DNA of 64,000 nucleotides from a virus. A model generated the notes under the pieces. That model was not told the origin of the DNA and did no database searches. It saw only the letters and a list, made by a program, of their open reading frames with translations. The translations under genes were made by a program, and so were the position numbers. The stretch lies in IMG/VR virus record IMGVR_UViG_3300045988_184227. One strand, 5' to 3'. The stretch's first letter is position 1, and every line of letters starts with the position of its first letter. Below are positions 4,854 to 54,777 of this stretch, in pieces.

Positions 4854-4892
4854 ATAAAACGGCTCCCAAAAGAAGGAAAGAATGAGAGCCTA

Positions 4893-4966
4893 AAGGGATG
4901 GTGGGAATTGAACCCGACGAATGTAGGCGTGAAAAGCCTATGCCTTAGCCACTTGGCGACACCCCC
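4893..4966 (-). tRNA. tRNA-Glu (UUC) candidate with a weak T-stem
   Basis: Anticodon stem TAGGC/GCCTA with loop TTTTCAC. Acceptor pairs with two G.U. The T-stem has only 3 clean base pairs. Confidence 0.5.
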
Positions 4967-5268
4967 TTAATAATCTCACCAAATAACTACCATCCGCAAC
5001 AAATCAAGGGCTGATAATTTAAATATATAGTGAGAATTTTAGTTTTTATAGGTTTAAAAAACTAAACATTATAATAATTTTTATATCCCCATTAATAAAC
5101 AGTGAAATGGGGAATCGAACCGTCAGTCAAAAATGCGAAAAATAACACAATTGACATTCCCATCTTGAGCCAAATTTCGCAGAAGCTACTATTTGTTTGA
5201 TATACTCATAAATTTTCAGGGCGTGTAGATTTAAGTGGTTCGGCTTTACGGCTGACCTACCACTAAAA

Positions 5269-5341
5269 CGGTGATACGGAGAATCGAACTCCGGTCTCTC
5301 GGTAGACAGCCGAGCGCACTAACCACTGTACTATACCACCA
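5269..5341 (-). tRNA. tRNA-Asp (GUC)
   Basis: Anticodon stem CTCGG/CCGAG with loop CTGTCTA. Acceptor GGTGGTA/TATCACC. T-loop GAGTTCGATTCTC. Confidence 0.8.
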
Positions 5342-5384
5342 TAAACCCGGCAACCAAAAGAAGGAAAGAATGGCTGCGGGCAAC

Positions 5385-5456
5385 CGGGCGGGTAGGACTT
5401 GAACCTACGACACAGGGATCTTCAATCCCCTGCTCTACCAACTGAGCTACCACCCT
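5385..5456 (-). tRNA. tRNA-Phe (GAA)
   Basis: Anticodon loop TTGAAGA. D-arm AGCTCAGTTGGTAGAGC. T-loop GGTTCAAGTCC. Confidence 0.8.
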
Positions 5457-5987
5457 TGAAACACCAGGATGTTTTTCCTACTCGACTTAGCGCTGCAAAC
5501 TATTAAGGTTACACGCTGACTAGGAATGGCCCCGGTTTGCAACTCCGGTTGACCTAGCCTTTTTAAAGCGTGGGAAGTATCAACAACCCCAACTCAAACA
5601 AGCACCACATAATAGATTTTTTTACCCATACGTAAACGTTATATCCAACGTAGATTTTGCCTGAGTGCCTCCGAAAATCTTATAGTTACGTTACCGCAAC
5701 ATCAACTACAATCGCATTGTTCGACACACAACTTTGGTTCCCTAAGTGTCACCTCAGATTCACTGTTGCGGCCAGCTATAGGACGAATCCCGTTCACTGA
5801 CACTTGTTGCGACGATTCGCAGAGCACCTTGTTTTTCGCACCGTCTCGCAAATTATCTCAGCCTGAACCATTTCACCGGTCTCCACTCTGGAACAATAAT
5901 AGTAAAGGTATCCCTATACCACAATTGCAGGTCTTAACAAGATAACCCAGGCACCACTTGCTAAGTGGAATTATGCCCTTTGGTGTA

Positions 5988-6062
5988 TTCGGGGAGTAGG
6001 ATTCGAACCTACGGCCTTTGGAGAATGAGTCCAACGAGCTGACCAGACTGCTCTATCCCCGG
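5988..6062 (-). tRNA. tRNA-Met (CAU), copy 3. It starts with C1-G72.
   Basis: Acceptor CCGGGGA/TCCCCGG. Anticodon loop CTCATTC. T-loop GGTTCGAATCC. Confidence 0.8.
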
Positions 6063-6085
6063 ATAATATTATAAAACTATCAAAT

Positions 6086-6114
6086 AGTATAAACTATTAT
6101 TTGAAATATGTCAA
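6086..6114 (-). promoter_or_regulatory. Sigma-70-like promoter (TTGACA, 17 bp, TATACT) upstream of tRNA-Met copy 3
   Basis: Minus-strand reading is TTGACATATTTCAAATAATAGTTTATACT. It is preceded by AAAAAAATAAAAAAAC and GTTATAATAGTTGAG. Confidence 0.65.
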
Positions 6115-6182
6115 TAGTTTTTTTATTTTTTTCTACTCAACTATTATAACGTATTTTTCTACAAGAAATAGTTGAGAAAAAG

Positions 6183-6272
6183 GATAGGGTGGGATTCGAA
6201 CCCACGGGTGACTTATTAGGCCACTGAACTGCTTTCAAAACAGCCTGCTTTTGACCGCTTGCATACCTATCC
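6183..6272 (-). tRNA. tRNA-Ser (UGA), long variable arm
   Basis: Anticodon loop TTTGAAA. 90 nt long with a long variable arm. T-loop GGTTCGAATCC. Confidence 0.8.
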
Positions 6273-6484
6273 ATTAACGGTGGTTTTATTTGGGATTCGG
6301 TCTCACTTCTCAACCACCAACCAATTTATTTGGCATATTGCACGGAAAACCCAACTTCCCTGTGCGCCAATTTCAGAACCTATGGGCGAACCATTCAACT
6401 AGTATAGTTCTGAAATTAAGATAGAGGGTGCGAGCCCACGACTTTAATAATTAAAGTCTGTTCTTCTAATCGAACATATCCCAG

Positions 6485-6574
6485 ACGGAGCAAGTAGGAT
6501 TCGAACCTACGCACGACATCTCTGCCGCCTAATTGTTTTCGAAACAAGCCTCTTAACCACTTGAGTATTGCTCC
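6485..6574 (-). tRNA. tRNA-Ser (CGA), long variable arm
   Basis: Acceptor GGAGCAA/TTGCTCC. Anticodon loop TTCGAAA. Near-identical backbone to the tRNA at 7937-8026. Confidence 0.7.
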
Positions 6575-6953
6575 TAACTTAAACTCCTAAAACTTTTAAA
6601 TTGCCACGCCCCTCGGCAATTTGGTCAAACCAATTTCACCGGTTTTTTAACGTGGTTGATGACATCCACAGGGCGTATCGCAGACCTAAATCCACGATGA
6701 TAAGTTGTACGGAGTGAGCGTGATCAGGGCTCACTAGACAAACTCGCTTTCACGAGAAACAACCTTTCATTATTGACGATCTTGGGCACGTAGTCGCAAC
6801 TGAAACAATCACGTAACTTCGGGGTTGATAGTCCCTACTGAAATTATTTCAGCTGAGTTGGAACTTTTACAGTTCCAGTAAAAGGGTGAGGATGATCAGC
6901 TCTCACTAGGAAAACTCGTTTGCACGAGAAACAATAATCGATCATCAATAATG

Positions 6954-7026
6954 AAGCGCAGTACGGGAATCGAACCCGTGTCATCAGTTTGGAAGACTGA
7001 GGTTTTACCATTAAACTAACCACGCA
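6954..7026 (-). tRNA. tRNA-Gly (UCC)
   Basis: Anticodon stem TCAGT/ACTGA with loop CTTCCAA. T-loop GGTTCGATTCC. Confidence 0.8.
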
Positions 7027-7139
7027 GATCGCTGTCGTCACAGCGTTATCAAAATTTTTATACAATCATTAGGATAAAAATTTTCAGCAACTACAACTCT
7101 TTCAAGCTGAGTAGTTAACGTGAGCTGAAACATATCCTA

Positions 7140-7220
7140 TCCCCAGCGCAGGACTTGAACCTGCACGATAAAAATCGCAGAGGCTTAAACTCTGTGTGTC
7201 TGCCATTCCACCAGCCAGGG
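7140..7220 (-). tRNA. tRNA-Leu (UAA), long variable arm
   Basis: Anticodon stem CAGAG/CTCTG with loop TTTAAGC. Variable arm CGAT/ATCG. T-loop GGTTCAAGTCC. Confidence 0.75.
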
Positions 7221-7222
7221 TA

Positions 7223-7297
7223 CTGAGAGAGTGGGACTCGAACCCACAGCCTTCCGGTTAACAGCCGGGCGCTCCACCATTGAGCTATCCCCCATCA
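7223..7297 (-). tRNA. tRNA-Asn (GUU)
   Basis: Anticodon stem CCGG/CCGG with loop CTGTTAA. T-loop GGTTCGAGTCC. Confidence 0.75.
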
Positions 7298-7305
7298 GTA
7301 TGAAA

Positions 7306-7390
7306 ATGGAAGCGGTAGGATTCGAACCTACGAACTCGAAAGAGAGCAGGGTTACAGCCTGCCGTGTTTAACCAGCTTCACTACACTTCC
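7306..7390 (-). tRNA. tRNA-Tyr (GUA), long variable arm
   Basis: Acceptor GGAAGTG/CGCTTCC. Anticodon stem GCAGG/CCTGC with loop CTGTAAC. Confidence 0.8.
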
Positions 7391-7441
7391 AAAATATTCT
7401 TTTACTATTATAGCACTTTTTTTATCAAATGCAAGATAGTA

Positions 7442-7516
7442 ATTCTCAGAACAGGGTTCGAACCTGTGCGTTACTGGATTCAAAGTCCAGTGCCTTACCA
7501 ACTTGGCTATCTGAGA
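7442..7516 (-). tRNA. tRNA-Gln (UUG)
   Basis: U1-A72 acceptor TCTCAGA/TCTGAGA. Anticodon loop CTTTGAA. T-loop GGTTCGAACCC. Confidence 0.85.
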
Positions 7517-7520
7517 TTAA

Positions 7521-7595
7521 ACGCACCCTGAAGGAATTGAACCCACAACCTTTCGGTTCGTAGCCGAACGCTCTATCCTGTTGAGCTAAGAGTGC
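7521..7595 (-). tRNA. tRNA-Arg (ACG)
   Basis: Anticodon stem TTCGG/CCGAA with loop CTACGAA. Acceptor GCACTCT/AGGGTGC. Confidence 0.75.
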
Positions 7596-7634
7596 TTATA
7601 TATTTTATTATACATCTTTTTATAAGAAGAGTAG

Positions 7635-7710
7635 GGCGATCGACAGGACTCGAACCTGCAATAGACGGATTCACAGTCCGTTGCGTTTTTCCGTTTTCGC
7701 CACGAACGCC
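7635..7710 (-). tRNA. tRNA-His (GUG) with genome-encoded G-1
   Basis: Anticodon stem ACGGA/TCCGT with loop CTGTGAA. An extra 5' G pairs with discriminator C73. Confidence 0.75.
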
Positions 7711-7936
7711 AAAATGATTTTGAAATTTGTGTGGAGTACGATTCCACGATGTTCCCGGCGATCACTCTAGTATGATCTCTATCGATTCATCCAAACGGGA
7801 ACTGTCACCAAGTAAGCGAAGATGAATTTCACATACATCTCAACCAAAAATTTCAAAAAATATACGTCGGAGTCCGCAGTTGCAACCGTAAGCGGATACT
7901 CCAGTAACCCCTCGATCACTGTCCACGATTTCGGAC

Positions 7937-8026
7937 TACGGAGAGAATAGGATTCGAACCTACGCACGACATTTCTGCCGCCTATATGTTTTCCAAACAT
8001 ACCTCTTAACCACTTGAGTACCTCTC
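7937..8026 (-). tRNA. tRNA-Ser (GGA), long variable arm
   Basis: Acceptor GGAGAGG/TCTCTCC. Anticodon stem TATGT/ACATA with loop TTGGAAA. Confidence 0.75.
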
Positions 8027-8201
8027 CAAAGTAAAGGTTTGCCACATCACTATATACTATTATATAGCAATATAATCCGTGGCAAACCCTTTAAAATAAT
8101 GCAAGCTATAAAAATTCAAAAATGCAATTATCAATTTGCCGTTTGACAATAACAAGTCTATCACAATATTTTTAGCTTGTCAATACTTTTTTAAAAATTT
8201 T

Positions 8202-36759: not shown

Positions 36760-38208
36760 TCAACTTTCAAGCCTTGAAATCTCATCTCGAAGATCATCAA
36801 TTTCTTGGTTCAAAGAATCAATCTCATCATCTTTGTATTGAATTGTGCGTTCAAGATCTTCACGTTCTAAAGAAAAATCTTTTTCTAAATCCTCTCGCAA
36901 GTCAGACTTAGCTTCCTCGATAATTCCATCGATCGTATCTCTAAGAGAATTATGATCATACTTATAAAGGAAAAAGTCAATATCTTCATTAGAAATCAAT
37001 TTGTAATATTTCATTAAGACGTCCGAAAATTTAGCTCCTTCACCCTTGAGTTTTGATAAAATTTTCTCCTTAAGATATACTTCAGCAAGAGCCCCGCTTT
37101 CGTTTAACAGATTTCCATCTTCATAATCAAAGGTTACACTAAAAATCTTTTTCTTGTGTAATTCAAGGAGTGATAATGATTTATTTTCTTTGCTGAAATA
37201 ATCATAACATCTAATACTGCGAGTTTTTCCCAAAATTTTCTTTTCCTCCTTGAAGAACTTATAGAAAATATCCGGTAACTCATCTCTCTTATTAAACATT
37301 GTGTAAATATCACTGCGACAGAATGGTGATTCTTTCAAAAAGTTATAATCCATCAACTCGTATCTCTCAACTGTACTGATATACTTGGTAGCTTTCTCTA
37401 TTGAGATAATACGTTCCGGATTATTAGAAAAATATTTCTTCTTCAAATATCCAAGTCGTGCCATCTCCTTCAAGATAAAGTGAAGGAGAATATCGATACC
37501 AAACCAATCGCTTTCCAAAAGTGTTTTGATACCGGATTTCTCAACAAACTCAGCTACTTCGTCTGACAAATTACCATTCATAATATCATCAATCTCAAAC
37601 AAAATTAAGATAGATGGAAAAAAGAATTTATTATCTAAAGGATTTTCTTTTAAATAATCAAATTGTTCTAGAGTAACTTTTTGTAAATATTTCATAAAGT
37701 TCTCACTTTTTCGAACATCTTTTGCTTTCAATCCGAGTTCTAATAAGAACAAAATTGACTTGTATCCCTCATCACCTTTAATATTTATTGATTTTAGGTA
37801 ATTTTTTACAAAAGGAACAAAGTCGTCCTTTTTTAAATTATCAGATAAGGTTGAATCTTCAAAATCTTTTCTAATAGAATCAAACAGTAATCGTTTTAAT
37901 TCATCCTCATTTTGATTAATCTTAACTGAAGCAGTTACAGGAATTAGATTGTAAATATTCAGTGGTTTTTCAATTTTTTCTTTCATCATCTTTATAGTAA
38001 TTAGATTGATTCCACCATCGGATGATTCGATTAAGTAAATTGTTTTTGTGGTATCATCGTAATAAGCGATACGAGAATTGAATAAAGATCCACCTAAATC
38101 AACAACCGAGATATCTTCCGGCTTTTCAGATAAAAGTTTAGCTACTGTTTTTAAATAAAACTTACCTTCCAAAGATTTGCTCTTTGTTGGCTCATCAGTT
38201 CTTTTCAT
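36760..38208 (-). CDS. Hypothetical protein with an N-terminal VVDLGGSLFNS...LIESSDGG segment and a C-terminal coiled coil
   Basis: The N-terminal motifs are reminiscent of actin/ParM/Hsp70 phosphate loops. The C-terminal heptad-rich tail is acidic. Confidence 0.45.
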   Translation of the reverse strand: MKRTDEPTKSKSLEGKFYLKTVAKLLSEKPEDISVVDLGGSLFNSRIAYYDDTTKTIYLIESSDGGINLITIKMMKEKIEKPLNIYNLIPVTASVKINQNEDELKRLLFDSIRKDFEDSTLSDNLKKDDFVPFVKNYLKSINIKGDEGYKSILFLLELGLKAKDVRKSENFMKYLQKVTLEQFDYLKENPLDNKFFFPSILILFEIDDIMNGNLSDEVAEFVEKSGIKTLLESDWFGIDILLHFILKEMARLGYLKKKYFSNNPERIISIEKATKYISTVERYELMDYNFLKESPFCRSDIYTMFNKRDELPDIFYKFFKEEKKILGKTRSIRCYDYFSKENKSLSLLELHKKKIFSVTFDYEDGNLLNESGALAEVYLKEKILSKLKGEGAKFSDVLMKYYKLISNEDIDFFLYKYDHNSLRDTIDGIIEEAKSDLREDLEKDFSLEREDLERTIQYKDDEIDSLNQEIDDLRDEISRLES

Positions 38209-38298
38209 TATAAAAATCCTTCTTTTCTAACTGAAATTAATTCAGTAAAATATTTTTCTTAAATTATAAAAGAAGAGTGAATATCTCACTCTTCTTTT

Positions 38299-38925
38299 TT
38301 AGATATTGTACGTTTCATCCAAAAATTCAACAAATCGTTCAACGTTGCCTTCAAGTGACACGTCAGGAAGAACGTTGAAAACTGGCAAACAGAACAAATC
38401 TTGAATAGTTGATACACGTTCTTGTTCGAGTTGAACTCGATCGATACGTCCGTTGATTTGTTCTTCGTCACCACCACGAGATTTGATACGCTCGATAGCA
38501 ACATCAATAGGTAGATTCAAAATCACAGGATATACCTTTACACGTAAACCACCATACTCGTAATACAGGTCACCCTGATCTTGGAATACGTGTGAGTAGA
38601 AGTTCGTATCTGCAACTAATACAGCGTGATTGGTGAAATTATCAGTTTTCGAGACAACCTCATCTTTCGTAACGCCGTAAAGATTTTCTTGGAATTTTGT
38701 TTCCTCAAAAACTGAGTTTGATTCGGACAATTCATTGGCTTGTGCCTCTGAAAGAAAATAATAATCAACTCCATCTACCTCCCCAGGCCGTGGGGGTCGT
38801 GTGGTATACGAAATCAATGTGTGCTCATCGTCGAAAATTTTAGATAGAGTTGTTTTCCCAGAACCTGAAATTCCGGTAATCACCACAATACCAGCTTGAC
38901 GCTTTTCTTGGTTTTCGATAATCAT
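38299..38925 (-). CDS. gmk: Guanylate kinase
   Basis: P-loop ITGISGSGKTTL. YTTRPPRPGEVDGVDYYF matches the GMP-binding signature. Confidence 0.8.
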   Translation of the reverse strand: MIIENQEKRQAGIVVITGISGSGKTTLSKIFDDEHTLISYTTRPPRPGEVDGVDYYFLSEAQANELSESNSVFEETKFQENLYGVTKDEVVSKTDNFTNHAVLVADTNFYSHVFQDQGDLYYEYGGLRVKVYPVILNLPIDVAIERIKSRGGDEEQINGRIDRVQLEQERVSTIQDLFCLPVFNVLPDVSLEGNVERFVEFLDETYNI

Positions 38926-38967
38926 AATTTGATTACCTCCCTTCTTTCTATATTATTTTTACTTTCC

Positions 38968-39525
38968 TTAATTATAAGGAATATATTTCTTCAAAATATC
39001 TTTTGAATTGTTTGAGTTCTTCGGATCTAAGTAATCTTCTGACAATTCATCAAAAATGTTATCCATTCTCATTTTAACAAATTTCTTTAAAGAGTCCAAC
39101 TGATAAATGGTCATAATTGGATAATTTTTATCTGATAACGGGAGATGTACTGGGCAAACCCCAAGAACGATCTCGTTAGAAGAACTCTTCAATTTTGATA
39201 CTGTTAATTTTAGTCCATAAGTTGATGATAAAAGCCCATTGTGAAAGAATGGCTTTAATTCAACTCTTAATTTTTGTTTATTCTTTGGGTGATATGTAAA
39301 TAAAAAAATAAACATAGATAAGTCTTCTCTTTGAGCATTCTTCATCATTTTTTTATTTTCTTCCATCAGATTCTTTGCAATCTTTTCCCAAGTGGAATAA
39401 CGTCGATTAAAATTCTGAATTAAATTCAGGATATCATCTTTCTGAGATAATTCCAGAAGTTCTTTCAGACGTTCTTTAAAAACAACATCTTTTTCTTGAG
39501 ATAAAATCTCAGACTTTAAAACCAT
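38968..39525 (-). CDS. Hypothetical protein
   Basis: ORF with promoter-SD leader at 39526-39600. Confidence 0.5.
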   Translation of the reverse strand: MVLKSEILSQEKDVVFKERLKELLELSQKDDILNLIQNFNRRYSTWEKIAKNLMEENKKMMKNAQREDLSMFIFLFTYHPKNKQKLRVELKPFFHNGLLSSTYGLKLTVSKLKSSSNEIVLGVCPVHLPLSDKNYPIMTIYQLDSLKKFVKMRMDNIFDELSEDYLDPKNSNNSKDILKKYIPYN

Positions 39526-39589
39526 TTTAATTCCTTCTTTCTATATTTTTGTTTCTTATATTATATCAAAAATGTCAGTTTTCTGCAAC

Positions 39590-41160
39590 AAAAAAGAGGG
39601 TTTTAAATCCCTCCAAACCGGTTTTCCCCTACGAGGTGTTCACCGGAAACTATTATAAGACTGGTGGGGTATTCTTCGGGCGATACCTCACATCAACGCC
39701 TAAATATAGGTTTAAATGGTTTATACAAATGTATCATTTGTTATCATTTGTATCATTTAATTTTTAACATTCCACAATGACTTTTAACTCATCGTTTATG
39801 TTAAAGGCAACCTACATCACCTCTATAAGCCCTCTTTGGTGAATACCAAATACGGGTTTACGTGTATTTTTCTATTAACTTTTTATTAGACAATATATTA
39901 TAACCAGTCAAACTTCTTGTATGAAATGATACATTATTTCTGTTGAGACAAATACCAAATTTACTCAAACCCTTACTCAGGATGTTATATGATCCATTAA
40001 TATCAGCATTAATAAGTTTTCCGTTCTTAGATTTATACAAACCTCTTTTTACACGTTTTCCAGAAAATGTATATTTTTTACCATCGTTTTTCCAAACCGG
40101 AATTACATCAGAGTCTATAAAGCTAGCTTTTGATGTGTAAGATTCTTCCTGCTCTACAACTTCTATTCCTCGTAACTGACATTTGTACTTTAGCTGAGAA
40201 ATAAATTTATTATAGGGAATTTGAACAAAATTTTGATTCCCCTTTTTACCAATAGAAATACCAGACTTTAAACCAACATTTTTACCAATAAAAACCTTTT
40301 CAAGTGCCATCTCGTCGAAAAATTCTGCTAAAAATCCTGTGATTTTATGAAATTCTGATTGCAATTTCATCTCACGATTTCTAAAAAGACGGTGGATGTG
40401 CTTACTTGTTTTTTGATTATTTGGTAATTTAGATTGATATTTAGATATCAGGCGATTATACCCTTGATTGATATATTTAACATTCAACCCCTTAATCAAA
40501 AGCGGGTTCGTTCCATCAGAAAATGTAACCGCAGCCAAATTATCAACGCCGAGGTCAATTGAAGCGTATTTATGAGTTTTTCTTAAAGGTTTTTCTTTAA
40601 CCTCGTAAATAACATCAATAAAAAAATAACCATTTCTTGGAATTATCTTGACACATTTTGGGTTGTCAACTTTTGTTGGAATTGAGATCCTCAGATCTTT
40701 TGGGCATAAGATAAGTTCGTTATTTCCCCCACGCTTTTTAGCGAAAGTTTGGTTTGTGAACTCAACCGCATACCTACCTTCTGTCTTGTGTAGATATCCT
40801 GGGATCTTTGGTTTGTTAGTTATTTTCTTATTTGACTTGTCATTGTAACCTTTTAAAACCTGATAATATGAACTGATATTACCACCCAACATTTTTATGA
40901 TATTGGTTGAAACCTTAGATGGCAATGCTTTCATATCGTTCTGGTCTTGTTTCCTAAATTCAGAAACTAATTGTGACCAGCTTAGTACTGGTTTTTTATT
41001 TTCTTTATCAGACTTTTCTCGTTCAAATATTGATTGACGGATTTGATACAATCCAGCATTATAAAGATTCTTAGATTTAAATGTTAAATCATCACAAATT
41101 TTGTATAAATCATTGCTAGGTTTGATTAGATGTCTTTCTACTTGTCTCACTACTGCCTCC
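39590..41160 (-). mobile_element. IS605/IS1341-type element remnant: tnpB-like gene plus downstream structured non-coding right-end region. No tnpA.
   Basis: TnpB RuvC motifs. GC-rich 270-nt non-coding tail with hairpins at 39590-39857. Confidence 0.55.
39858..41150 (-). CDS. tnpB: TnpB-like RuvC nuclease lacking the CxxC...CxxC zinc finger
   Basis: RuvC-I IDLGVDNLAAVTFSDG. RuvC-II EESYTSK. RuvC-III INADINGSYNIL. No Cys between RuvC-II and RuvC-III. Confidence 0.75.
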   Translation of the reverse strand: MRQVERHLIKPSNDLYKICDDLTFKSKNLYNAGLYQIRQSIFEREKSDKENKKPVLSWSQLVSEFRKQDQNDMKALPSKVSTNIIKMLGGNISSYYQVLKGYNDKSNKKITNKPKIPGYLHKTEGRYAVEFTNQTFAKKRGGNNELILCPKDLRISIPTKVDNPKCVKIIPRNGYFFIDVIYEVKEKPLRKTHKYASIDLGVDNLAAVTFSDGTNPLLIKGLNVKYINQGYNRLISKYQSKLPNNQKTSKHIHRLFRNREMKLQSEFHKITGFLAEFFDEMALEKVFIGKNVGLKSGISIGKKGNQNFVQIPYNKFISQLKYKCQLRGIEVVEQEESYTSKASFIDSDVIPVWKNDGKKYTFSGKRVKRGLYKSKNGKLINADINGSYNILSKGLSKFGICLNRNNVSFHTRSLTGYNILSNKKLIEKYT

Positions 41161-41444
41161 TTTTCTAAAATTTTTTATCAACTTATTATATCATAAAATA
41201 TTTAAAATAACAAATTCAATTCAAAATTGAATCAAAAAATATACAAAAATAAATAAAAATATAAATAACGAATTAACCTTAAATAATACTCTGAAATAAT
41301 TCCGTGATAACATTTTTGATAAATATATAACTCATCAAATCTATTTTAGCTTATTTATTATCAATAAAAAGTTATTAACTTTTTATTAATTGGAAATGTT
41401 ATATAATAGTTAAAGAAATAATAAAAAAAGGAATGGTATAGATT

Positions 41445-43271
41445 TTGAATAAAAAATTATCATCAATCATTGCTTCCGGAGCTATTTTGTTAACAGTTGC
41501 ACCAGCAGTTGGTACACTTGTTCAAGTTGGAAGCAACGTTGTTCACGCAGAAGCGTTTAAAGCTGGAGCTCAAGCAACCCGAACATTAAAATTTAATGTA
41601 AAAGCTGATGAAAAAATTAATACAAAAACTGAAACCGTTGGGGAACCTGTTGACTTAATTATGATTGTTGACGGTTCAGGATCTCAAATCGAACAATTTA
41701 ATAGTGGTGACAACCCAAGTCGACGTAAAGTTAACGTTGCGCTTGGTGACGCATTAAAACTTGTAGAATCACTCCCTGAAGGATCACAGGTTATGATTGC
41801 TTCTTATGACACTAACACAGTTGATTCTTATGCCAAAAAAGGAATTACAAAATTAATTCCTAAAGCAGACGCAATTAAAGTATTGAATGATGTTAAAGAC
41901 TCATCACCAGAATCAAAATACCAATTGGAATGGTATCGTGTTTGGGAGAAATACCTAAATAACGCTGGAGATAAAATCTACGATAAGTCATCAACAGACA
42001 GACCATTTGAAGAAGCTTATGAAAAAGATCCTGCTAAGAAAAACAAATACGTATCTGTAATTCAATTTACGGATGAGTGGGTCCAAGATGAGGCAATTGA
42101 CAGCTCATTTGCAGACTGGTCAAAAGCTAAAGCTAAAACATTTATGAGTGTTCTTTATCCTAAAGCAGATGGAAACCTTCGTTCTGAAACAATGATGAAG
42201 GCGGTTGGACACCCTAACATCTACAATTCTCGTGGAAAGAGTGACGCTGCTCGTCAAAAGGATATCATCGAAAAATTCAAAGAAACAGCAATCAAGACAA
42301 CAACTACAAAAACTCGAGTTTCACCAGAGGGAACTGTAACTGTTTCAGCAGAGAAAGATGTAAATCTTTCAGAAGTTGAGTTGATTTCACCAAAGGGTAC
42401 TAAAACAAAACTTGAAGTCAAAGATGGAAAGGCTACTTGGTCTGGAAAATTTGATGAAGACGGCGAATACAAAGTGAATTACAAATTTACTGGAACACCT
42501 TCTGAAATTAAAAAAGTAACCGGTGATGTTCAAGTTTCAGGCAAATCAGTAGTTAACGCTGTTGATACGATTGAGCCAAACAAATCTTCTGCTGTTGATA
42601 CAGCCAAAGAGGACATCCCTTTCAAAACCATTGAAGAAAAGGATCCAACACTTCCATTTGGTGAACGTAAGGTTAAGGTTAAAGGGGTTCTTGGTGAACG
42701 CACAATTACAAAAACATACGATGTTCTTAATGGTAAACGTGTAGGAGAACCTAAAGTTGATACAAAAGTTACAAAAGAACCGGTTGATGAAGTGGTCCTA
42801 GTTGGTACTAAAGTAGACGAAAAAGTAACTTACAAGACAATCCACAAAGGTGACGATGGTAAGGTTCTTAAAGAGGAAAATACCGCAGCTGAAAAGTCAG
42901 AGTTTGATGGTTACAAATACGTTAAAACCGAAGCTGATAATTCTGACAAACTAAACGTAGTGACAACCCATTACTACCATAAACTTATTACAACCTATAA
43001 AGGTGTAGACGCAAACGGTAAAGAAGTTGTACTAGAAAAAGTTGACGGAACTAAGAACAAGAAAGACTTTAAGGGTTACATCTTCGAGAAAACAGAAAAA
43101 TTAGATAACGGTGACGTGGTTCATCACTACAAAGCTAAAAAGGCTGATGAAAAGAAAAAACCAGTAGAGACCGGAGCTAATGCTTCTTCTGCTATTATGC
43201 CATTAATTGGTATTTCTAGTGGGCTTGGAGTTCTAGGTGCTGCTGCATACATCGTTAAACGTAAAAAATAA
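41445..43271 (+). CDS. VWA-domain plus G5-like-domain surface protein with C-terminal PVETG-hydrophobic-KRKK anchor (TTG start)
   Basis: Signal peptide. MIDAS motif DLIMIVDGSGS. G5-like GERKVKVKGVLGERTITKTY...VDEVVLVGTK. C-terminal KKPVETGA, a hydrophobic segment, then KRKK. Confidence 0.7.
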   Translation: MNKKLSSIIASGAILLTVAPAVGTLVQVGSNVVHAEAFKAGAQATRTLKFNVKADEKINTKTETVGEPVDLIMIVDGSGSQIEQFNSGDNPSRRKVNVALGDALKLVESLPEGSQVMIASYDTNTVDSYAKKGITKLIPKADAIKVLNDVKDSSPESKYQLEWYRVWEKYLNNAGDKIYDKSSTDRPFEEAYEKDPAKKNKYVSVIQFTDEWVQDEAIDSSFADWSKAKAKTFMSVLYPKADGNLRSETMMKAVGHPNIYNSRGKSDAARQKDIIEKFKETAIKTTTTKTRVSPEGTVTVSAEKDVNLSEVELISPKGTKTKLEVKDGKATWSGKFDEDGEYKVNYKFTGTPSEIKKVTGDVQVSGKSVVNAVDTIEPNKSSAVDTAKEDIPFKTIEEKDPTLPFGERKVKVKGVLGERTITKTYDVLNGKRVGEPKVDTKVTKEPVDEVVLVGTKVDEKVTYKTIHKGDDGKVLKEENTAAEKSEFDGYKYVKTEADNSDKLNVVTTHYYHKLITTYKGVDANGKEVVLEKVDGTKNKKDFKGYIFEKTEKLDNGDVVHHYKAKKADEKKKPVETGANASSAIMPLIGISSGLGVLGAAAYIVKRKK

Positions 43272-47369: not shown

Positions 47370-47900
47370 CTATCGAGTAATAATATTTGGAAACTCACCG
47401 TTATTCAAAAAATTCTGATAAATTGACAACAACTTTTTCTTAATAAAACTTTTAAACTTGTAATTTATAAATCTATCAAGATAATAATCGTTAACTTCCA
47501 ACTTTCGATTTTCTGATCCGCTTAACAGGCTTTTTCCAAAAATCGCTCTAAACTGTCGAGTTTCACGACTTGAATTTAAGTGCAACTCACCCAATAAAAT
47601 AGGTTGACTCACACACAAATCTTCAGTAAATTTTGGAAGATAATCAATATCGTATTTGGAGAAGATTTCAAATGTGTTTGTTTCACAGAAGTAATAAATA
47701 AGAAAAACAGGAAGCTTCAATTCACTTACAGATCCAGCAGTAACACATACATAAGGATATTGATTTAGCTTCTTAATAGATAATCTAACAACATCCATAA
47801 ATTGTTCTGAAAGTGGATATTCTCCTTTTTGGATAATATCTTTTATTTGCTTCATCTGTTCAAACTGAGAAGATTCTTCTGTTTTTGTGTTTAAAACCAT
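47370..47900 (-). CDS. Hypothetical protein
   Basis: Leader CTGAATTTATTTCAG plus SD at 47901-47930. Confidence 0.5.
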   Translation of the reverse strand: MVLNTKTEESSQFEQMKQIKDIIQKGEYPLSEQFMDVVRLSIKKLNQYPYVCVTAGSVSELKLPVFLIYYFCETNTFEIFSKYDIDYLPKFTEDLCVSQPILLGELHLNSSRETRQFRAIFGKSLLSGSENRKLEVNDYYLDRFINYKFKSFIKKKLLSIYQNFLNNGEFPNIITR

Positions 47901-47975
47901 ATTTCCCTCTTTCTACTGAAATAAATTCAGATTTTTTAATTTCTTAAATTATAAAAGAGGAGGGAGGATACCCCC

Positions 47976-49781
47976 TCAGTTTTTCATCAATTCTAAAACA
48001 AGGTTTACAAATTCAAGTAAAATTTTAGGTTTTTCAAACTCGTCATAAATTCCATTCTCGATTCCGATCCTCAAATAATCAATCTGTTTTGAAAACAATT
48101 CTGGTTCTGAATTTTCAAGAATAACTTTCACTTTTCCAGGATTATTATCTTTAATTTCTTTGATTATTTTGATGTGATCCATAGTAGATTGATAATTAAA
48201 ATCAACTTCGTCAATTAACAACTTAAGGATTGTTTCAAACTCAAGTCTTATAAAAAGAGAACCACCTATCTTAACCGGAATATTATTGGATATGGATTTT
48301 AAAATCGCAAGATCCACGGTTGAGTGACCAAACGTAATAGAATTATTTTTACTTGTAAGGTTATACACCAAATCAATGTCAAGGTTAAATTCGCTTAATT
48401 TATCTAGCTCTTTATCCTTGATAAATAAGTCCAGCTCTTCCAAAATCAACTTTTTATTGTATGCGTCGCCAAGAAATACAGAACCTCTCCCAACCTTACC
48501 AATAGTAAGCCCATTTTGAAAATCATAAACTAAACGTTCAAGTTCTTTTTTGTTGAAATCTTTTGTTGCGGATTCAAGTAGCTTACTGAATAAAAGCTGA
48601 ACAAATTTTCCTTTCGTTCCTGTAGAGAAAAAGAATGATGTTGACAAATTTAAAGTACTCATTGTCGAGTTCATAAATCGTCCACCTGCAAGTTCACCTG
48701 TAATTTCCGCCAATCCTAAAACAACATTTTCTGCATTACTATTGAATGAAGATCTAGCTATCTCTCCTAATAATTCAATAAAAGCAGTTTGATTAGAATA
48801 ATACTTGCTATCTTCAAAATAAAGATTTTCACAACATACACTAGAACCTTTTAGGTAGAAAACACCAGCTTTTTCAGTAAAGAAATATTTTCTAAACCAA
48901 TTACAGATAAGTCCTAGAAGTTCACTTCGTGTAGACATAGTTTTTAAGCCGGTGTAACTATTTGCTTGAACAAACATATTAACGATATCAGTTTTAATAT
49001 CCGATAAATATTGGTTAAATTCTTCACGAAAAGTTGAGAGATAATCCCAAGACTCAAATTCAACAACCTTTACTTCTCCGTCATAGTCAGATGTTGATTT
49101 CAACGGGTCTGCTGTTTCAAAAAATAAATATCTATACATCCACTCTCGTTCGTTCTTTTTTAGCAACGATAATGGTGTATTAAAAATAAATTTAATATCT
49201 CTTTTAGGTGATGTAAGTAAACCTTCAGTACCTAGAACACCACTATGAAGAAAAGTTTCATCTTCTAAAACCAGTCGTTCGCAAACTAATTTAAGTTTTT
49301 CACGAACTCTTTTTGTCAAATATTCAACTATAAATTTCTTAGCTGAATCCTCATCGGTTAATTGAAGACCCTTCTTTTTCATACCCCAAGAATCATTGTA
49401 TTCGATTAATGAATAGCACTCTATAAGTTTTTTAGATTTTCTAGATTGATTTAGATTGAAAGTACCTAAATATAGGACATCTTTATCTAAAATGTTCTGA
49501 TGTTTAATATCATCCAACCTTTCACCTTTGATTAAAATGATCTTATCTTCTAAGAAACTATACCAAATTTGAAATTTGCTAAAATTAACTCCATCTAGTG
49601 AATTTTCGCTTGGATACCAAGGGGAAGTGAATCCTTTTAGTAATTTAAGTGAAAAATCTATATTATCTTCAGATACTGTAATGTTTTTGCCCTTAATCAA
49701 GGATTTGATTTTATCAATTCTTTCCCAACGAACCGGTTCCAATTCTCGTTCTGTTGAAATCGAATTACTTTTTACTACCAT
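47976..49781 (-). CDS. Paralog family C member 2
   Basis: IWYSFLEDKI. C-terminal IGIENGIYDEFEKPK. Leader CTGAATTTAATTCAG plus SD at 49782-49815. Confidence 0.6.
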   Translation of the reverse strand: MVVKSNSISTERELEPVRWERIDKIKSLIKGKNITVSEDNIDFSLKLLKGFTSPWYPSENSLDGVNFSKFQIWYSFLEDKIILIKGERLDDIKHQNILDKDVLYLGTFNLNQSRKSKKLIECYSLIEYNDSWGMKKKGLQLTDEDSAKKFIVEYLTKRVREKLKLVCERLVLEDETFLHSGVLGTEGLLTSPKRDIKFIFNTPLSLLKKNEREWMYRYLFFETADPLKSTSDYDGEVKVVEFESWDYLSTFREEFNQYLSDIKTDIVNMFVQANSYTGLKTMSTRSELLGLICNWFRKYFFTEKAGVFYLKGSSVCCENLYFEDSKYYSNQTAFIELLGEIARSSFNSNAENVVLGLAEITGELAGGRFMNSTMSTLNLSTSFFFSTGTKGKFVQLLFSKLLESATKDFNKKELERLVYDFQNGLTIGKVGRGSVFLGDAYNKKLILEELDLFIKDKELDKLSEFNLDIDLVYNLTSKNNSITFGHSTVDLAILKSISNNIPVKIGGSLFIRLEFETILKLLIDEVDFNYQSTMDHIKIIKEIKDNNPGKVKVILENSEPELFSKQIDYLRIGIENGIYDEFEKPKILLEFVNLVLELMKN

Positions 49782-49885
49782 TATTTTTCCTTCTTTCTAA
49801 CTGAATTAAATTCAGAATTATTATTTCTTAAATTATAATAGCAAGAAGTTGTCTCCTGAAATAAAAAAAGTAAAAGGAAAACCTT

Positions 49886-51631: not shown

Positions 51632-51761
51632 TTTTTCCTTCTTTCTAGCTGTAATAATAACAGCGAAATATTATTTCTTTAATTATAACAGACTTGAATT
51701 TGCTTTTATAATTAAAGAAATAATAAATCTGAATTTATTTCAGTAGAAAGAAGGTATTAAA

Positions 51762-53057
51762 ATGAAAGAAACAGGAAATTTACTGTTGGAAATAGACAAG
51801 ATGGTTCTTGACGCTGTTAACAATGGCGCAAAACTATTGCTACCAACAGAAAATCTCTTTCCAAAATCAATAGTAGAGGCTGGCGTTGGCGGAAATTCAA
51901 CAATTATTTTATTTTGTTTTGTAGACAATAATTTCTATCTAACATCAAGTAGTTTTGATTATCCGCTTGATAGATTCGTTGCGGTTGCCTACGGTAACAG
52001 TGTTGATGATGTACTATATAATAGCACACACGTATCCATCGAAACTCTTCGTGTTGAATTGAATTATCGAGCTACATCCTTGGATTCTGTTGTAGACGAA
52101 CACGCCTTTAATCTTATGAACATTTTTAAAAACTCACCTCAAAGTGATGAGGGTAATAAAAAGCGCATTAAGATTCTGGAGATAATTCCCTTATCCGACG
52201 AAGAAAATTATAAATATCCATACAATAAGGATATTCGTAAAAAATTCGTAGATCATTTTACAAAATTTTTCTTGGATGAATGCGCAGACGAATTTTACGG
52301 AGCTCTCAGCTGGTATTATAACAATGCAGAAACCAAAAACTTTTCTTTGACAGGTTTAACATTGGAATTGTTGCAAAATGAAAAAAATTGGGATTCGTTT
52401 TTCTGTAAAATTGGATATCCAATCGATGATCTTGTTATTGAGGGAATATTGATGAATTTATTTGAAACAAGAGATGATGTTTGCAATTTTTTAAATAAAT
52501 TTATTGATTACCACAAAAGAAAGGGTTTTACTCCAACATTCAACGCATTCAATTTCTCTCTTTTTGTTGATTATCTATCTGTTTATTTTTCAGATGATAA
52601 ATACTATCTGGATTTGTTTAAGAAAAATAGTTTTAAACTCATTCTAGACTTTGTTTTGAAGAATCATTACGACAAAAATAATGATTTTATTTACGAAAAA
52701 ATAACTGAATATAACAAAAATATTGATGTGAGCCTTTGGACTGAATTTATTGAAGAAGGTATCCTGGAAATAAAAGGTCTTTCGGAAGAACTGGCTTATT
52801 TATCAGATAGAAAAATAGAAGATTTTTATGTTAAAATTTTTGGAAAGGTTGATAAAGTACTCTGTTCAAAAGAACTTTTGAATTATTATATTTTTCTAAA
52901 AATTTACAAAGGTATCAACGATTTAGTTGATAAAGACAAATCAATAGAACAACAAATCAAGGACAAGAAAAATAGAGCTATTTTGAGTAAAAAAATAAAA
53001 TCTATTAACGACATTCTTGCCGGCTTGAAATTCTTGGAAAAGAAAAATTTTATCTAA
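51762..53057 (+). CDS. Paralog family B member 3
   Basis: LLLEIDKMVLDAV...IILFCFVDNNFYLTSSSFDYPLDRFVAVAYG. Leader CTGAATTTATTTCAG plus SD at 51729-51752. Confidence 0.6.
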   Translation: MKETGNLLLEIDKMVLDAVNNGAKLLLPTENLFPKSIVEAGVGGNSTIILFCFVDNNFYLTSSSFDYPLDRFVAVAYGNSVDDVLYNSTHVSIETLRVELNYRATSLDSVVDEHAFNLMNIFKNSPQSDEGNKKRIKILEIIPLSDEENYKYPYNKDIRKKFVDHFTKFFLDECADEFYGALSWYYNNAETKNFSLTGLTLELLQNEKNWDSFFCKIGYPIDDLVIEGILMNLFETRDDVCNFLNKFIDYHKRKGFTPTFNAFNFSLFVDYLSVYFSDDKYYLDLFKKNSFKLILDFVLKNHYDKNNDFIYEKITEYNKNIDVSLWTEFIEEGILEIKGLSEELAYLSDRKIEDFYVKIFGKVDKVLCSKELLNYYIFLKIYKGINDLVDKDKSIEQQIKDKKNRAILSKKIKSINDILAGLKFLEKKNFI

Positions 53058-53090: not shown

Positions 53091-54649
53091 TAAAAGGTGA
53101 TTTTATTGAATGTCGACTCTTCCTTAACCATCCAATAATCATCATCCCAGTCAAGATCATCCTCATTCAAAGAGAAACCTGAATCATCTAAAACCTTAGA
53201 AAATTCAATTTTTGGTTCTAACTTTCCATAATCAGATTTCGCCATAAGTTCCATCTTTTTAATTAGAAATTCAATATCCATTTTGTATATTTGGAGATCG
53301 ATAGAATCTTCTGAAACTAATTGAGAAAATAACTCACAAGACTTTTGATGTTCAAGTAAGAAATTCTTTGCTGTTTCTGATTCAGAATAGAAACGGAGCT
53401 CATTATTGATTTTTGATAATCCCTCTTCTCCACTTCGACCAAAAGTTTTAAGAGTGAAAACATCGACTAACGAAAAGTTCTTATAAGCAAATTTAACATC
53501 ATCCTTGATTTCAAGGAGTTTTTCTAAAAATTTATTATAAATCTTTAGACTGACAAGTGTTTTTCTTAAATCATCAAGAGTCGAGCTTGAATGATAACCT
53601 GTAAACTTATGAGCCCAATCCTTCGACAATTCCCCAGAAAAATCCTGGAACAAACAGATAGGTTTATTCTTTTCGCTGAGAACTTTTTTAAGCGCAATAA
53701 CTAGTCTGCTGATCAAATCATCCAAAAAGTCTTCGTCCACCCCATACGTTGAATTTGGTTTAAATTCAACAAAATTCAACAATCTAATTAATTCTGCATT
53801 AAAGCGGAGATATTTATCATCTTCGATGTTTGAATCTGATATTAGAGAGTTTGCGTATTTATAAAAGCAAAAGTCTAAAAGTTCTTCAAATTCATCTTGG
53901 TGATTCTTTTTAAATTGACAAAAAGATTTGATATATTTTAATATATAAACAATATCACTATCTCTGTAACGAACGTCTTCGACAAAATCGATTTTGACAT
54001 ATTCACGTATAGAGTCGATAATCGTATCCTTTCCAAAGAAAGATAGTAGAACCTTAGAGCTGTAATTAATTTCGTGCTCATTTTTTTGATTTTTTAAAAT
54101 ATTAGACCAAGAGGCGGCTGGAGATGAAACCAAAACACTCTTTAGCTTGTCTACTAGGATTTTTTCAAGCCCTGAAGTATCATCAGAATTGATAATTGAA
54201 TCAATTGATTGAAATTTAGTAACATAATCAATATAGTTAATTTCATTGCTGATCGTGCTATACTGCTTATTCAATCCTTCATTGTTAAATTTAGTACCAT
54301 CATCATAAACATTTGATAACTCCTCAATCAAAATGCTCTTTAATTTTGAAATCCGATTTTCCTTATTGTTATTACCGGATAAATCAGCGATGACACTTAG
54401 ACCAGTAGATATAGATTCTAAACCATCAGGTCTATACTTTGTATTGTAAAAATTATTTTGTTGGGCGTTTGCGATTTCAATTTTTTTTGATTTTTCATTA
54501 ATGAAATACAACTTTTTCTTGTTGCCATCATCAATAACATCGATATCGCCAATGACAAACTCCCAATCGCTAGGATTACCTAACATCACAACCAAATCTC
54601 TAATATGCTGGAGATATAGAGATAAAACGCTGTTTTTACTTTGTTTCAT
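53090..54649 (-). CDS. Paralog family D member 1
   Basis: WEFVIGDIDVIDDGNKKKLYF aligns with CKFIFGDLEILKDGGGEDLISV of 56706-57968. Confidence 0.55.
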   Translation of the reverse strand: MKQSKNSVLSLYLQHIRDLVVMLGNPSDWEFVIGDIDVIDDGNKKKLYFINEKSKKIEIANAQQNNFYNTKYRPDGLESISTGLSVIADLSGNNNKENRISKLKSILIEELSNVYDDGTKFNNEGLNKQYSTISNEINYIDYVTKFQSIDSIINSDDTSGLEKILVDKLKSVLVSSPAASWSNILKNQKNEHEINYSSKVLLSFFGKDTIIDSIREYVKIDFVEDVRYRDSDIVYILKYIKSFCQFKKNHQDEFEELLDFCFYKYANSLISDSNIEDDKYLRFNAELIRLLNFVEFKPNSTYGVDEDFLDDLISRLVIALKKVLSEKNKPICLFQDFSGELSKDWAHKFTGYHSSSTLDDLRKTLVSLKIYNKFLEKLLEIKDDVKFAYKNFSLVDVFTLKTFGRSGEEGLSKINNELRFYSESETAKNFLLEHQKSCELFSQLVSEDSIDLQIYKMDIEFLIKKMELMAKSDYGKLEPKIEFSKVLDDSGFSLNEDDLDWDDDYWMVKEESTFNKITF

Positions 54650-54777
54650 TATTACCTTCTTTCTGTAACTTTTAAAGTTACTATTTTTTCTTTAATTATA
54701 ACAGTCTTGTTTATTCTTCTATAATTTTAAAAATATTGATATTGAGTGTATACCGCACTCTAGAAAGAGGGAATGAA

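What the first reader, a model, noticed from the sequence alone, without database searches (positions are those of the whole stretch)
39590..41150. TnpB-like nuclease without the zinc finger, plus a GC-rich structured tail. Candidate guide-RNA module.
The 430-aa protein has the TnpB N-terminal region and all three RuvC motifs: D in IDLGVDN, E in EESYTSK and D in INADINGSYNIL. The stretch between RuvC-II and RuvC-III, which normally holds CxxC...CxxC, has no cysteines at all. Downstream on the same strand, the 270 nt at 39590-39857 is non-coding. It is markedly GC-richer than the host DNA, full of hairpins and ends in a terminator. That is where an omega-RNA or reRNA would be. No tnpA is adjacent. 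A ZnF-less TnpB with an intact catalytic triad may be a distinct RNA-guided nuclease variant domesticated by the element.
Basis: partly seen in the sequence, partly recalled or inferred. Interest (0 to 1): 0.7.

Follow-up and report, generated by a model that had tools for sequence, protein, structure and literature searches.

The report
Mobile TnpB insertion sequence with guide RNA

Summary
The 430-aa ORF (39858-41150, minus strand) is a genuine TnpB and has no CxxC…CxxC zinc finger. It is not a domesticated oddity. It sits in a 1580-bp insertion sequence (41285-39706). Near-identical relatives of the host replicon lack this element precisely (empty site …GAGTAT|ATTTAG…), and diverged copies occupy 14 different sites, 12 of them directly after 5'-GTAT. 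Relatives at 68% identity carry an overlapping serine-recombinase tnpA, so the family is IS607-type and this copy is non-autonomous.

The whole clade (150 representatives) lacks the zinc finger. It also has glycine at the canonical RuvC-II glutamate position. The invariant E336 in EESYTSK is the "alternative glutamate" already described for rearranged TnpBs and Fanzors.

The omega-RNA scaffold is the AT-rich 157 nt at 39862-39706. It folds with z = -4.6, shows compensatory changes, and a covariance model built from it finds matches directly 3' of tnpB in 14 sources (the window plus 13 related loci).

The GC-rich hairpins and terminator (39590-39700) are also present in empty sites and fold no better than shuffles. 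Only the first ~20 nt (39705-39686) would serve as guide.

Verdict: a new member of a known kind, of modest interest.

The parts
41286..41289 (-). 5'-GTAT target / TAM-like motif directly 5' of the left end. It belongs to the target, not the element.
   Evidence: The empty site reads …CAGAGTAT|ATTTAGAC…. The 5' flank is GTAT at 12 of 14 independent insertion sites, GGAT at one and GAAT at one.
41151..41285 (-). Left end (LE) of the insertion sequence. It contains a promoter-like site (-35 41213-41208 TTGTTA, TG-extended -10 41190-41185 TATAAT) and a GGAGG ribosome-binding site.
   Evidence: Conservation with copies in other contexts starts here. Boundary fixed by the empty-site comparison. Promoter scan.
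39858..41150 (-). tnpB, 430 aa. RuvC-I D199; Gly289 at the canonical RuvC-II position; alternative Glu E336; RuvC-III D383 (NADxN); no C4 zinc finger.
   Evidence: AlphaFold2 pLDDT 89.4. Foldseek matches to AsCas12f, ISFba1 TnpB and ISDra2 TnpB. dN/dS 0.06-0.13 between the diverged copies.
39706..39862 (-). Right end (RE), the predicted omega-RNA (reRNA) scaffold. It starts at the stop codon and ends in …CAUUUAAACCUAU. Four helices. AT-rich (GC 0.30).
   Evidence: Fold of 39686-39870 gives z = -4.6. RNAalifold: 14 of 49 pairs with compensatory changes. Model R1 finds matches directly 3' of tnpB in 14 sources. 90.8% of cells paired against ~40% for slid controls. Conservation stops sharply at 39706 in every context.
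39686..39705 (-). Predicted guide: ATTTAGGCGTTGATGTGAGG. This is host flank transcribed by read-through from the RE.
   Evidence: It lies directly 3' of the RE boundary. The same sequence follows GTAT in empty-site alleles, with one mismatch at position 7. The ~20-nt guide length is inferred from characterised TnpBs (PMC11061315).
39590..39685 (-). Host intergenic DNA, not part of the element. It is GC-rich and carries a terminator-like hairpin (39614-39595) that could end read-through transcripts.
   Evidence: Present in seven empty-site loci. GC 0.485. Fold z = 0.07. Terminator scan.

Best explanation
Window 41285-39706 (minus strand) is a 1580-bp non-autonomous insertion sequence of the IS607 type, that is, one moved by a serine recombinase. 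It sits in a giant plasmid-like or phage-like replicon from the human oral/gut microbiome.

It carries one gene, tnpB, followed by a ~157-nt structured omega-RNA scaffold that forms the right end of the element.

Inferred mechanism, by analogy with characterised TnpB systems:
1. Transcription from the left-end promoter runs through tnpB and the scaffold into the flank.
2. TnpB binds the scaffold.
3. The first ~16-20 flank nucleotides (ATTTAGGCGTTGATGTGAGG) act as the guide.
4. The complex cuts any copy of the site that lacks the element (5'-GTAT followed by the same sequence).
5. Recombinational repair from an occupied copy restores or spreads the element (homing).

Movement to new GTAT sites would need a serine-recombinase TnpA supplied in trans by autonomous relatives. 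The shared AT at both junctions is the likely crossover dinucleotide.

The nuclease belongs to a large clade with a rearranged RuvC site (Gly at the canonical Glu, alternative Glu E336) that has lost the C4 zinc finger.

Shown here: element boundaries, empty sites, target motif, RNA structure conservation, family membership, purifying selection.
Inferred, not shown: transcription, RNA processing, cleavage, homing, trans-mobilisation.
For: Boundaries and mobility:
- Seven loci with the same flanking genes (identical 185-aa protein) lack the element and read …GAGTAT|ATTTAGAC….
- Copies with 82-89% nucleotide identity lie in unrelated contexts.
- 14 independent sites have G[T/G/A]AT 5' of the LE, 12 of them GTAT.
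- One 338-kb contig (OEEJ01000006.1) carries two copies.

IS607 type:
- A 201-aa Resolvase-domain TnpA overlaps tnpB in L115-L122.
- Homologous tnpA lies directly upstream of tnpB in 19 of 80 IMG/VR loci, and a tnpA C-terminal remnant is present in L011-13.
- No target-site duplication was seen and no terminal inverted repeats.

Protein:
- family profiles; pLDDT 89.4; TnpB/Cas12f fold.
- D199, G289, E336 and D383 are each 100% conserved in 150 representatives.
- dN/dS 0.06-0.13, and all copies are exactly 430 codons.

RNA:
-.
- Literature for the mechanism: PMC11061315 (IS607 TnpB activity and structure), PMC10691335 and PMC10711439 (alternative Glu, zinc-finger loss), PMC13565253 (homing).
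Against: - No expression or cleavage data.
[quoted passage not shown] - The RNA matches no Rfam family, including RAGATH-18.
- No tnpA in the 64-kb window.
- Copies at different sites are diverged (dS 0.5-1.0), so most insertions are not recent.
- Empty alleles differ from the window's guide at position 7.
- The covariation count was made on an alignment fitted to the model.
Confidence: 0.8

Rival explanations
1. One reading: a zinc-finger-less TnpB domesticated by the host element, which uses the GC-rich structured tail (39590-39857) as its guide RNA.
For: No tnpA in the window. No cysteines in the zinc-finger region. A terminator closes the tail.
Against: - The GC-rich part is present at empty sites and so is host DNA. 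It folds no better than shuffles.
- Conservation among copies stops at 39706.
- The gene shows presence/absence polymorphism and occupies 14 different sites.
- Relatives carry a transposase.
Confidence: 0.04
2. A nuclease-dead or regulatory TnpB (TldR-like RNA-guided repressor). The canonical RuvC-II glutamate is missing, so the protein would bind but not cut.
For: G289 replaces the canonical Glu in 150 of 150 representatives. The insertion lies in a promoter region between divergent genes.
Against: - D199, E336 and D383 are invariant.
- E336 follows beta-5 exactly as in the alternative-Glu arrangement (PMC10691335). That arrangement is active in Fanzors (PMC10711439, PMC13565253).
- The element is mobile with varied neighbours, unlike the immobilised, exapted (domesticated) TnpBs described in PMC10691335.
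- The protein is full length with RuvC-III intact.
Confidence: 0.08
3. An IS200/IS605-type element moved as single-stranded DNA by a Y1 HUH TnpA, not by a serine recombinase.
For: Insertion directly 3' of a fixed tetranucleotide (GTAT), with an RE that ends in the related CTAT, recalls the cleavage-site logic of IS608/ISDra2. Both ends contain hairpins. The AT-rich target is reported as typical of IS200/IS605, not IS607 (PMC13565253).
Against: Every transposase found next to relatives is a serine recombinase: 8 metagenome loci and 19 IMG/VR loci, plus a remnant in L011-13. No Y1_Tnp family appeared among the 25 Pfam families listed for the window ORFs; 12 more families were not shown.
Confidence: 0.08

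Closest known systems
IS607-family TnpB with its reRNA (ISFba1 TnpB, PDB 8IAZ; Ren et al. 2024, PMC11061315)
   Same: - Relatives have a serine-recombinase partner.
- The guide-RNA scaffold lies wholly downstream of the ORF.
- The TAM lies 5' of the LE.
- TnpB fold (Foldseek E 1.6e-14).
- No TIR and no target-site duplication seen.
   Different: - ISFba1 has its catalytic Glu (E290) 96 residues after D194, which is the canonical spacing by my arithmetic. Here that position is Gly and the Glu is relocated.
- TAM is AGGAG or GAGGG there, GTAT here.
- The RNA there is RAGATH-18; here there is no Rfam match.
- Reported IS607 ends are GG; here AT.
- No sequence-level hit to 8IAZ.
RuvC-II-rearranged TnpB clades (RIIr-5 and related branches of Altae-Tran et al. 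2023, PMC10691335; 'Ealt' TnpBs with a D-hydrophobic-G motif of Yoon et al. 2023, PMC10711439)
   Same: - Canonical Glu replaced by Gly.
- Alternative Glu after beta-5, six residues before the zinc-finger position.
- NADxN RuvC-III motif.
- DLG RuvC-I motif.
- Mobile, with serine-recombinase associations.
- Zinc-finger loss noted for some large branches.
   Different: I could not place the protein on their tree, so the named branch is unknown. Yoon's search pattern required CxxC…CxxC, so zinc-finger-less members like this one fell outside that pattern search.
ISDra2 TnpB with omega-RNA (IS200/IS605; PDB 8H1J, 8EXA)
   Same: Overall fold (TM 0.72 normalised to the target). RNA derived from the RE, with the guide taken from the flank. 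The homing logic.
   Different: ISDra2 has the canonical Glu, a C4 zinc finger, a DRDxN motif, a Y1 transposase and an omega-RNA that overlaps the ORF.
Fanzor2 and pro-Fanzor TnpBs
   Same: Alternative Glu six residues before the zinc-finger position. IS607-type ancestry. Foldseek hit 9b0l.
   Different: Fanzors and pro-Fanzors have a DPG RuvC-I motif and keep the zinc finger. Here the motif is DLG and there is no zinc finger.

Membership tests
TnpB (OMEGA RNA-guided nuclease superfamily) | Profile match above the curated cutoffs | tested here: met
   PF01385 58.8 bits (cutoff 30.5) and PF07282 43.6 bits (cutoff 26.3). NF040570 140.1 bits (cutoff 100).
TnpB (OMEGA RNA-guided nuclease superfamily) | RuvC-I Asp and RuvC-III Asp | tested here: met
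   D199 and D383 are present in all 149 representatives that have a residue at those columns. They align to the GIDLG and DRD motifs of a canonical TnpB.
TnpB (OMEGA RNA-guided nuclease superfamily) | Canonical RuvC-II Glu at the end of beta-4 | tested here: not met
   G289 in 150 of 150. It aligns to the E of IAIENL and QMEDL. The alternative Glu E336 is invariant. Its place in the active site could not be measured because model coordinates are not exposed.
TnpB (OMEGA RNA-guided nuclease superfamily) | C4 zinc finger between RuvC-II and RuvC-III | tested here: not met
   0 of 150 representatives have any CxxC in this segment. The query has no Cys there. The segment is still confidently modelled (pLDDT 82-94).
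TnpB (OMEGA RNA-guided nuclease superfamily) | Conserved structured RNA at the 3' end with a sharp scaffold/guide boundary at the RE | tested here: met
   for structure. Boundary at 39706 in all contexts.
TnpB (OMEGA RNA-guided nuclease superfamily) | Fixed motif (TAM) 5' of the LE | tested here: met
   GTAT at 12 of 14 independent sites. Its use as a TAM by the protein was not tested.
TnpB (OMEGA RNA-guided nuclease superfamily) | RNA-guided DNA cleavage | not testable with these tools
   Needs biochemistry.
IS607 family | Serine-recombinase TnpA (MerR-like HTH plus Resolvase domain) next to tnpB | tested here: inconclusive
   Absent from this copy and from the window. Present and overlapping tnpB in 68%-identical relatives and in 19 of 80 IMG/VR loci. 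The MerR-like reading of the N-terminus is my own reading of the sequence.
IS607 family | No terminal inverted repeats, no target-site duplication | tested here: met
   Filled against empty site: only a 3-nt TAT ambiguity. No terminal inverted repeat.
IS607 family | Ends in GG, inserts at GG, G-rich TAM (PMC13565253, PMC11061315) | tested here: not met
   The RE ends …CCTAT. The target is GTAT. The dinucleotide shared by both junctions is AT.
IS607 family | RAGATH-18-type reRNA | tested here: not met
   No Rfam match at E up to 10 in the window region or at E up to 0.1 in 16 related loci.
IS200/IS605 family | Y1 HUH TnpA | tested here: not met
   None listed among the window ORFs (one search shows the top 25 of 37 families). 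Every transposase found next to relatives is a serine recombinase.
Domesticated TnpB (TldR and other exapted forms) | Immobile, fixed genomic neighbourhood, catalytic residues lost | tested here: not met
   Presence/absence polymorphism and 14 contexts. D199, E336 and D383 are invariant.
pro-Fanzor / Fanzor | DPG RuvC-I motif, alternative Glu and a zinc finger | tested here: not met
   The RuvC-I motif is DLG. The alternative Glu is present. No zinc finger.

The most novel reading that the evidence does not exclude
This clade combines five features: IS607-type mobility, Gly at the canonical RuvC-II position with a relocated Glu, no zinc finger, a 5'-GTAT TAM with an AT (not GG) crossover, and a ~157-nt omega-RNA that lies outside the ORF and is not RAGATH-18. 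If it is an active RNA-guided nuclease, I found no experimental work on this combination. It would show that zinc is dispensable for TnpB cleavage, would add an AT-rich-TAM compact editor, and would be a homing element that shapes giant extrachromosomal elements of oral streptococci.
Probability: 0.5. Interest if true: 0.45.

Novelty: new member of a known kind. Interest (0 to 1): 0.3.

Why it matters
It matters modestly.

- It corrects where the guide RNA lies: the AT-rich right end, not the GC-rich tail.
- It shows the gene is a live selfish element, not a host-adopted tool.
- The clade is very large. 4626 representative clusters score E ≤ 0.001, and it is common in large phage-like and plasmid-like contigs.
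- Zinc-finger loss combined with the alternative glutamate has been catalogued, but I found no experimental test of it. A member with clean boundaries, a defined TAM candidate (GTAT), a scaffold separate from the ORF, and natural filled and empty alleles is a convenient test case.
- The GTAT target and AT junction depart from the GG rule reported for IS607. If confirmed, that would widen what is known of the target choice of these serine recombinases.

Tried and rejected
- Rfam at E up to 10 over 38900-41600 gave only chance snoRNA-like hits. Rfam on 16 related loci gave only tRNAs.
- Megablast against the plasmid and phage collections: no match.
- phmmer against PDB: no hit. A profile search reached Cas12f and an AI-designed nuclease, but not ISFba1 or ISDra2 TnpB. 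I therefore could not read off whether ISFba1 keeps a zinc finger.
- A single-sequence scan of GTDB genomes gave only 29-34% relatives. A single-sequence scan of IMG/VR gave none. The alignment-based scan worked.
- The P0121 context was too short to show a 3' flank.
- I considered RIIIr-4, the zinc-finger-less major clade of PMC10691335, and rejected it. That clade has His at RuvC-III; here Asp is invariant.
- I considered that the GC-rich flank is a riboswitch or small RNA of the TnpB module, and rejected it. It is present at empty sites and folds with z = 0.07.
- An internal promoter-like site at 39925-39897 is not conserved in L004 or L005 (my reading of the sequences), so I make no claim for it.

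Full report
**1. What is at the coordinates**

The minus strand carries a 430-aa ORF (41150→39858) with a GTG start eight bases after AAAGGAGG. It matches Pfam OrfB_IS605 (7.7e-16) and Cas12f1-like_TNB (3.2e-11), and NCBIfam guided_TnpB (1.1e-40). All three are above their curated cutoffs.

An AlphaFold2 model built on 43 homologues is confident (mean pLDDT 89.4, pTM 0.83). Its best PDB matches are AsCas12f, ISFba1 TnpB (8IAZ), ISDra2 TnpB (8H1J, TM 0.72 normalised to the target) and Fanzor2. So the protein is a TnpB.

Between EESYTSK and INADING there is no cysteine.

**2. The element and its boundaries**

The protein has hundreds of close relatives (84-91% identity) on metagenome contigs of up to about 380 kb. 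Fetching their contexts showed unrelated neighbours. Nucleotide similarity to the window is confined to about 1.58 kb.

Looking up the neighbouring 185-aa protein gave ten loci that encode it identically:
- Seven have no tnpB between the 608-aa and 185-aa genes.
- Two carry the same element as the window.
- One (L024) carries a different TnpB element.

The empty sites read …CCAGAGTAT|ATTTAGACGTTGATGTGAGG…. The window reads …CAGAGTAT[TATTTAAGGTTAATTCG … CATTTAAACCTAT]ATTTAGGCGTTGATGTGAGG…. The element is therefore 41285-39706, 1580 bp. No target-site duplication is visible, and only a 3-nt TAT is ambiguous between the two junctions. It has no terminal inverted repeats.

An exact-match scan of metagenome contigs with the LE start, added to the earlier loci, gives 14 independent insertion sites. 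The four bases 5' of the LE are GTAT at 12 sites, GGAT at one and GAAT at one. The RE always ends …CCTAT and the 3' flank is unrelated between sites. The boundaries of L035, L036, L037 and L115 are inferred from similarity to the LE start, not from empty sites. One 338-kb contig carries two copies. The window has a single copy of the LE, the RE and the RNA model hit.

**3. Which transposon family**

No tnpA lies in the window (tblastn; Pfam scan of 50 ORFs).

The 68%-identical relative P0117 is preceded by a 201-aa Resolvase-domain protein that overlaps it by 14 nt. That protein carries a YARVSS motif and, on my reading of the sequence, a MerR-like N-terminus.

tblastn with this protein gave three results:
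- A homologue directly upstream of tnpB in 19 of the 80 IMG/VR loci.
- A C-terminal remnant upstream of tnpB in L011-L013.
- A fragment at the start of the short contig L034.

The clade is therefore of the IS607 type, and the window copy is a tnpA-less derivative.

It departs from published IS607 rules: ends in GG, integration at GG, and AGGAG or GAGGG TAMs (PMC13565253, PMC11061315). Here the shared junction dinucleotide is AT and the target is GTAT.

**4. The catalytic site and the zinc finger**

In a MAFFT alignment of the query with 149 relatives, mostly 50%-identity cluster representatives at 35-59% identity, four positions are invariant: D199, G289, E336 and D383.

hhalign against a canonical TnpB (the 412-aa protein of L024, with CSNC…CVNC and DRDLN) gave these correspondences:
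- D199 aligns with GIDLG.
- The IGKN segment (G289) aligns with IAIENL.
- TSKASFID…KSKNG aligns with SSKTCSNCG…HCVNC.
- NAD aligns with DRD.

HMMER against AsCas12f likewise puts viGkn opposite QMEDL. So the canonical RuvC-II glutamate is replaced by glycine. The invariant E336 sits just after the next strand (330-335 in the model), six residues before the first former zinc-finger cysteine.

This is the rearrangement described for RIIr clades ('glutamate … replaced with glycine … alternative glutamate', PMC10691335). It is also the 'Ealt' signature of Fanzors and related TnpBs (PMC10711439). With DLG at RuvC-I, the protein falls in the Ealt group that has a D-hydrophobic-G motif.

None of the 150 sequences has a CxxC between E336 and D383. 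The first cysteine survives in 58 of them. Cyanobacterial relatives at 29-34% identity show the same pattern.

[quoted passage not shown] Its named zinc-finger-less major clade, RIIIr-4, has His at RuvC-III, and that is not the case here.

Copies at different sites have dN/dS of 0.06-0.13 at dS 0.5-1.0 or more, and all are exactly 430 codons. The protein is under purifying selection.

**5. The RNA**

| Part | GC | Fold z-score | Belongs to |
|---|---|---|---|
| 39706-39857 | 0.30 | -4.6 (measured on 39686-39870; 0 of 200 shuffles as stable) | the element (RE) |
| 39590-39705 | 0.45 (0.485 for 39600-39700) | 0.07 (measured on 39590-39700) | the host flank |

A MAFFT alignment of nine RE sequences (55-100% protein identity) gives a four-helix consensus. 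In it, 14 of 49 pairs have compensatory changes. Examples are GGUGA/UUGCC ↔ GGUCU/AGACC ↔ GGUAU/AUACC, and UUAAAUG/CAUUUAA ↔ UCAAAUG/CAUUUGA. The three core helices persist in a second, more diverse alignment.

A covariance model built from this alignment (R1) was run over 403 kb of loci. It gave 14 hits at E ≤ 1 (the window plus 13 loci), every one on the tnpB strand and starting at or just after the end of the TnpB match. On the resulting alignment, 90.8% of cells pair against 35-46% when partners are slid, and 39 of 49 pairs show double changes. That alignment is fitted to the model, so this count leans towards the structure.

The last ~55 nt of the RE are almost invariant between copies whose synonymous sites are half saturated.

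No Rfam family matches, including RAGATH-18, the reRNA of characterised IS607 TnpBs.

The scaffold begins at the stop codon, so it is separate from the ORF, as in ISFba1 (PMC11061315).

**6. The GC-rich tail**

It is present, with a few SNPs, in all seven empty-site loci. It is therefore host intergenic DNA.

Only its first ~20 nt (39705-39686) would be read as guide. In the empty alleles that sequence follows GTAT, as a TnpB target should, with one difference at guide position 7 (A for G).

The terminator at 39614-39595 may simply end read-through transcripts.

**7. Mechanism**

Boundaries, target motif, RNA conservation and selection are shown. The rest is inferred from ISDra2 and ISFba1 work (PMC11061315, PMC13565253):
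- Read-through transcription from the LE promoter (TTGTTA-17-TG-TATAAT).
- Binding of TnpB to the scaffold.
- GTAT- and guide-dependent cleavage of unoccupied sites.
- Repair from an occupied copy (homing).
- Transposition proper would need a serine recombinase from an autonomous relative.

**8. Verdict**

The object is a new member of a known kind. Interest is modest. The clade is abundant and I found no experimental work on it, and this locus gives clean parts for a test. Nothing here is categorically new.

Noticed in passing
window 332-8028 (- strand): An array of 23 tRNA genes covering most amino acids. It is typical of huge phages or giant extrachromosomal elements.
   Followed up: partly
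whole window; related contigs of 336-392 kb (L004, L014, L024-L033, L128-L140): The host replicon resembles the 'Inocle' giant plasmid-like elements of oral Streptococcus (PMC12340149). It comes from saliva, HMP and oral/gut metagenomes, on contigs of about 340-390 kb. It encodes a RecD-like helicase, G5-domain proteins, a surface protein with a C-terminal anchor-like tail, gyrB, Toprim+DUF3991, a ClpB-like AAA protein and nucleotide kinases. IMG/VR files similar large contigs as viral. Identity with Inocles was not tested by sequence, and that paper does not mention TnpB or transposases.
   Followed up: partly
L024:2171-4005 (same intergenic region as window 39526-41444): In one relative, a different TnpB insertion sequence sits 56 nt downstream of the window's insertion point. 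It is canonical: 412 aa, C4 zinc finger, IAIENL glutamate, DRDxN. The site of the window's element is empty in that locus. This intergenic region is hit by two unrelated TnpB elements.
   Followed up: partly
window 39590-39705 and 41286-41310; empty-site loci L025-L033:3790-3960: At the empty site a promoter-like TTACCA-16-TATATT straddles the insertion point. About 105 nt of GC-rich sequence and a terminator follow it. This could be a small RNA gene of the host replicon that the element split at its -10 or start. This is inference only; the fold is no better than shuffles (z = 0.07).
   Followed up: partly
window 39650-39710 and 41290-41310, compared with L025-L033: Filled and empty alleles differ by SNPs at -22, -9, +6, +24, +37, +38, +42 and +52 relative to the junction, with no other SNP within about 240 nt on the left or 400 nt on the right. 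The +6 change is guide position 7. This could be a co-conversion tract from homing, an escape variant, or plain linkage.
   Followed up: no
window 47885-47990(-), 49765-49870(-), 38205-38300(-), 51690-51770(+), 54640-54740(-): A shared promoter/leader motif upstream of at least five genes: TATAAT, then TTAAGAAA, then a small hairpin CTGAA-N5-TTCAG, then AGAAAGAAGG and the start codon. It also matches intergenic regions of related replicons.
   Followed up: partly
L125-L127 (LE region, about 1380-1500): A copy with 98% nucleotide identity to L004's tnpB whose left end is truncated. It lies next to a recJ-like gene, just after a terminator. It is probably immobilised, yet keeps an intact 430-codon tnpB and the full RE.
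   Followed up: no
L002:2422-2597 and 5464-5719; L014:about 4530-4600: Distant and close relatives of the element often lie next to tRNA genes (Rfam hits in L002; a tRNA-like sequence, read by eye, just 3' of the RE flank in L014).
   Followed up: no
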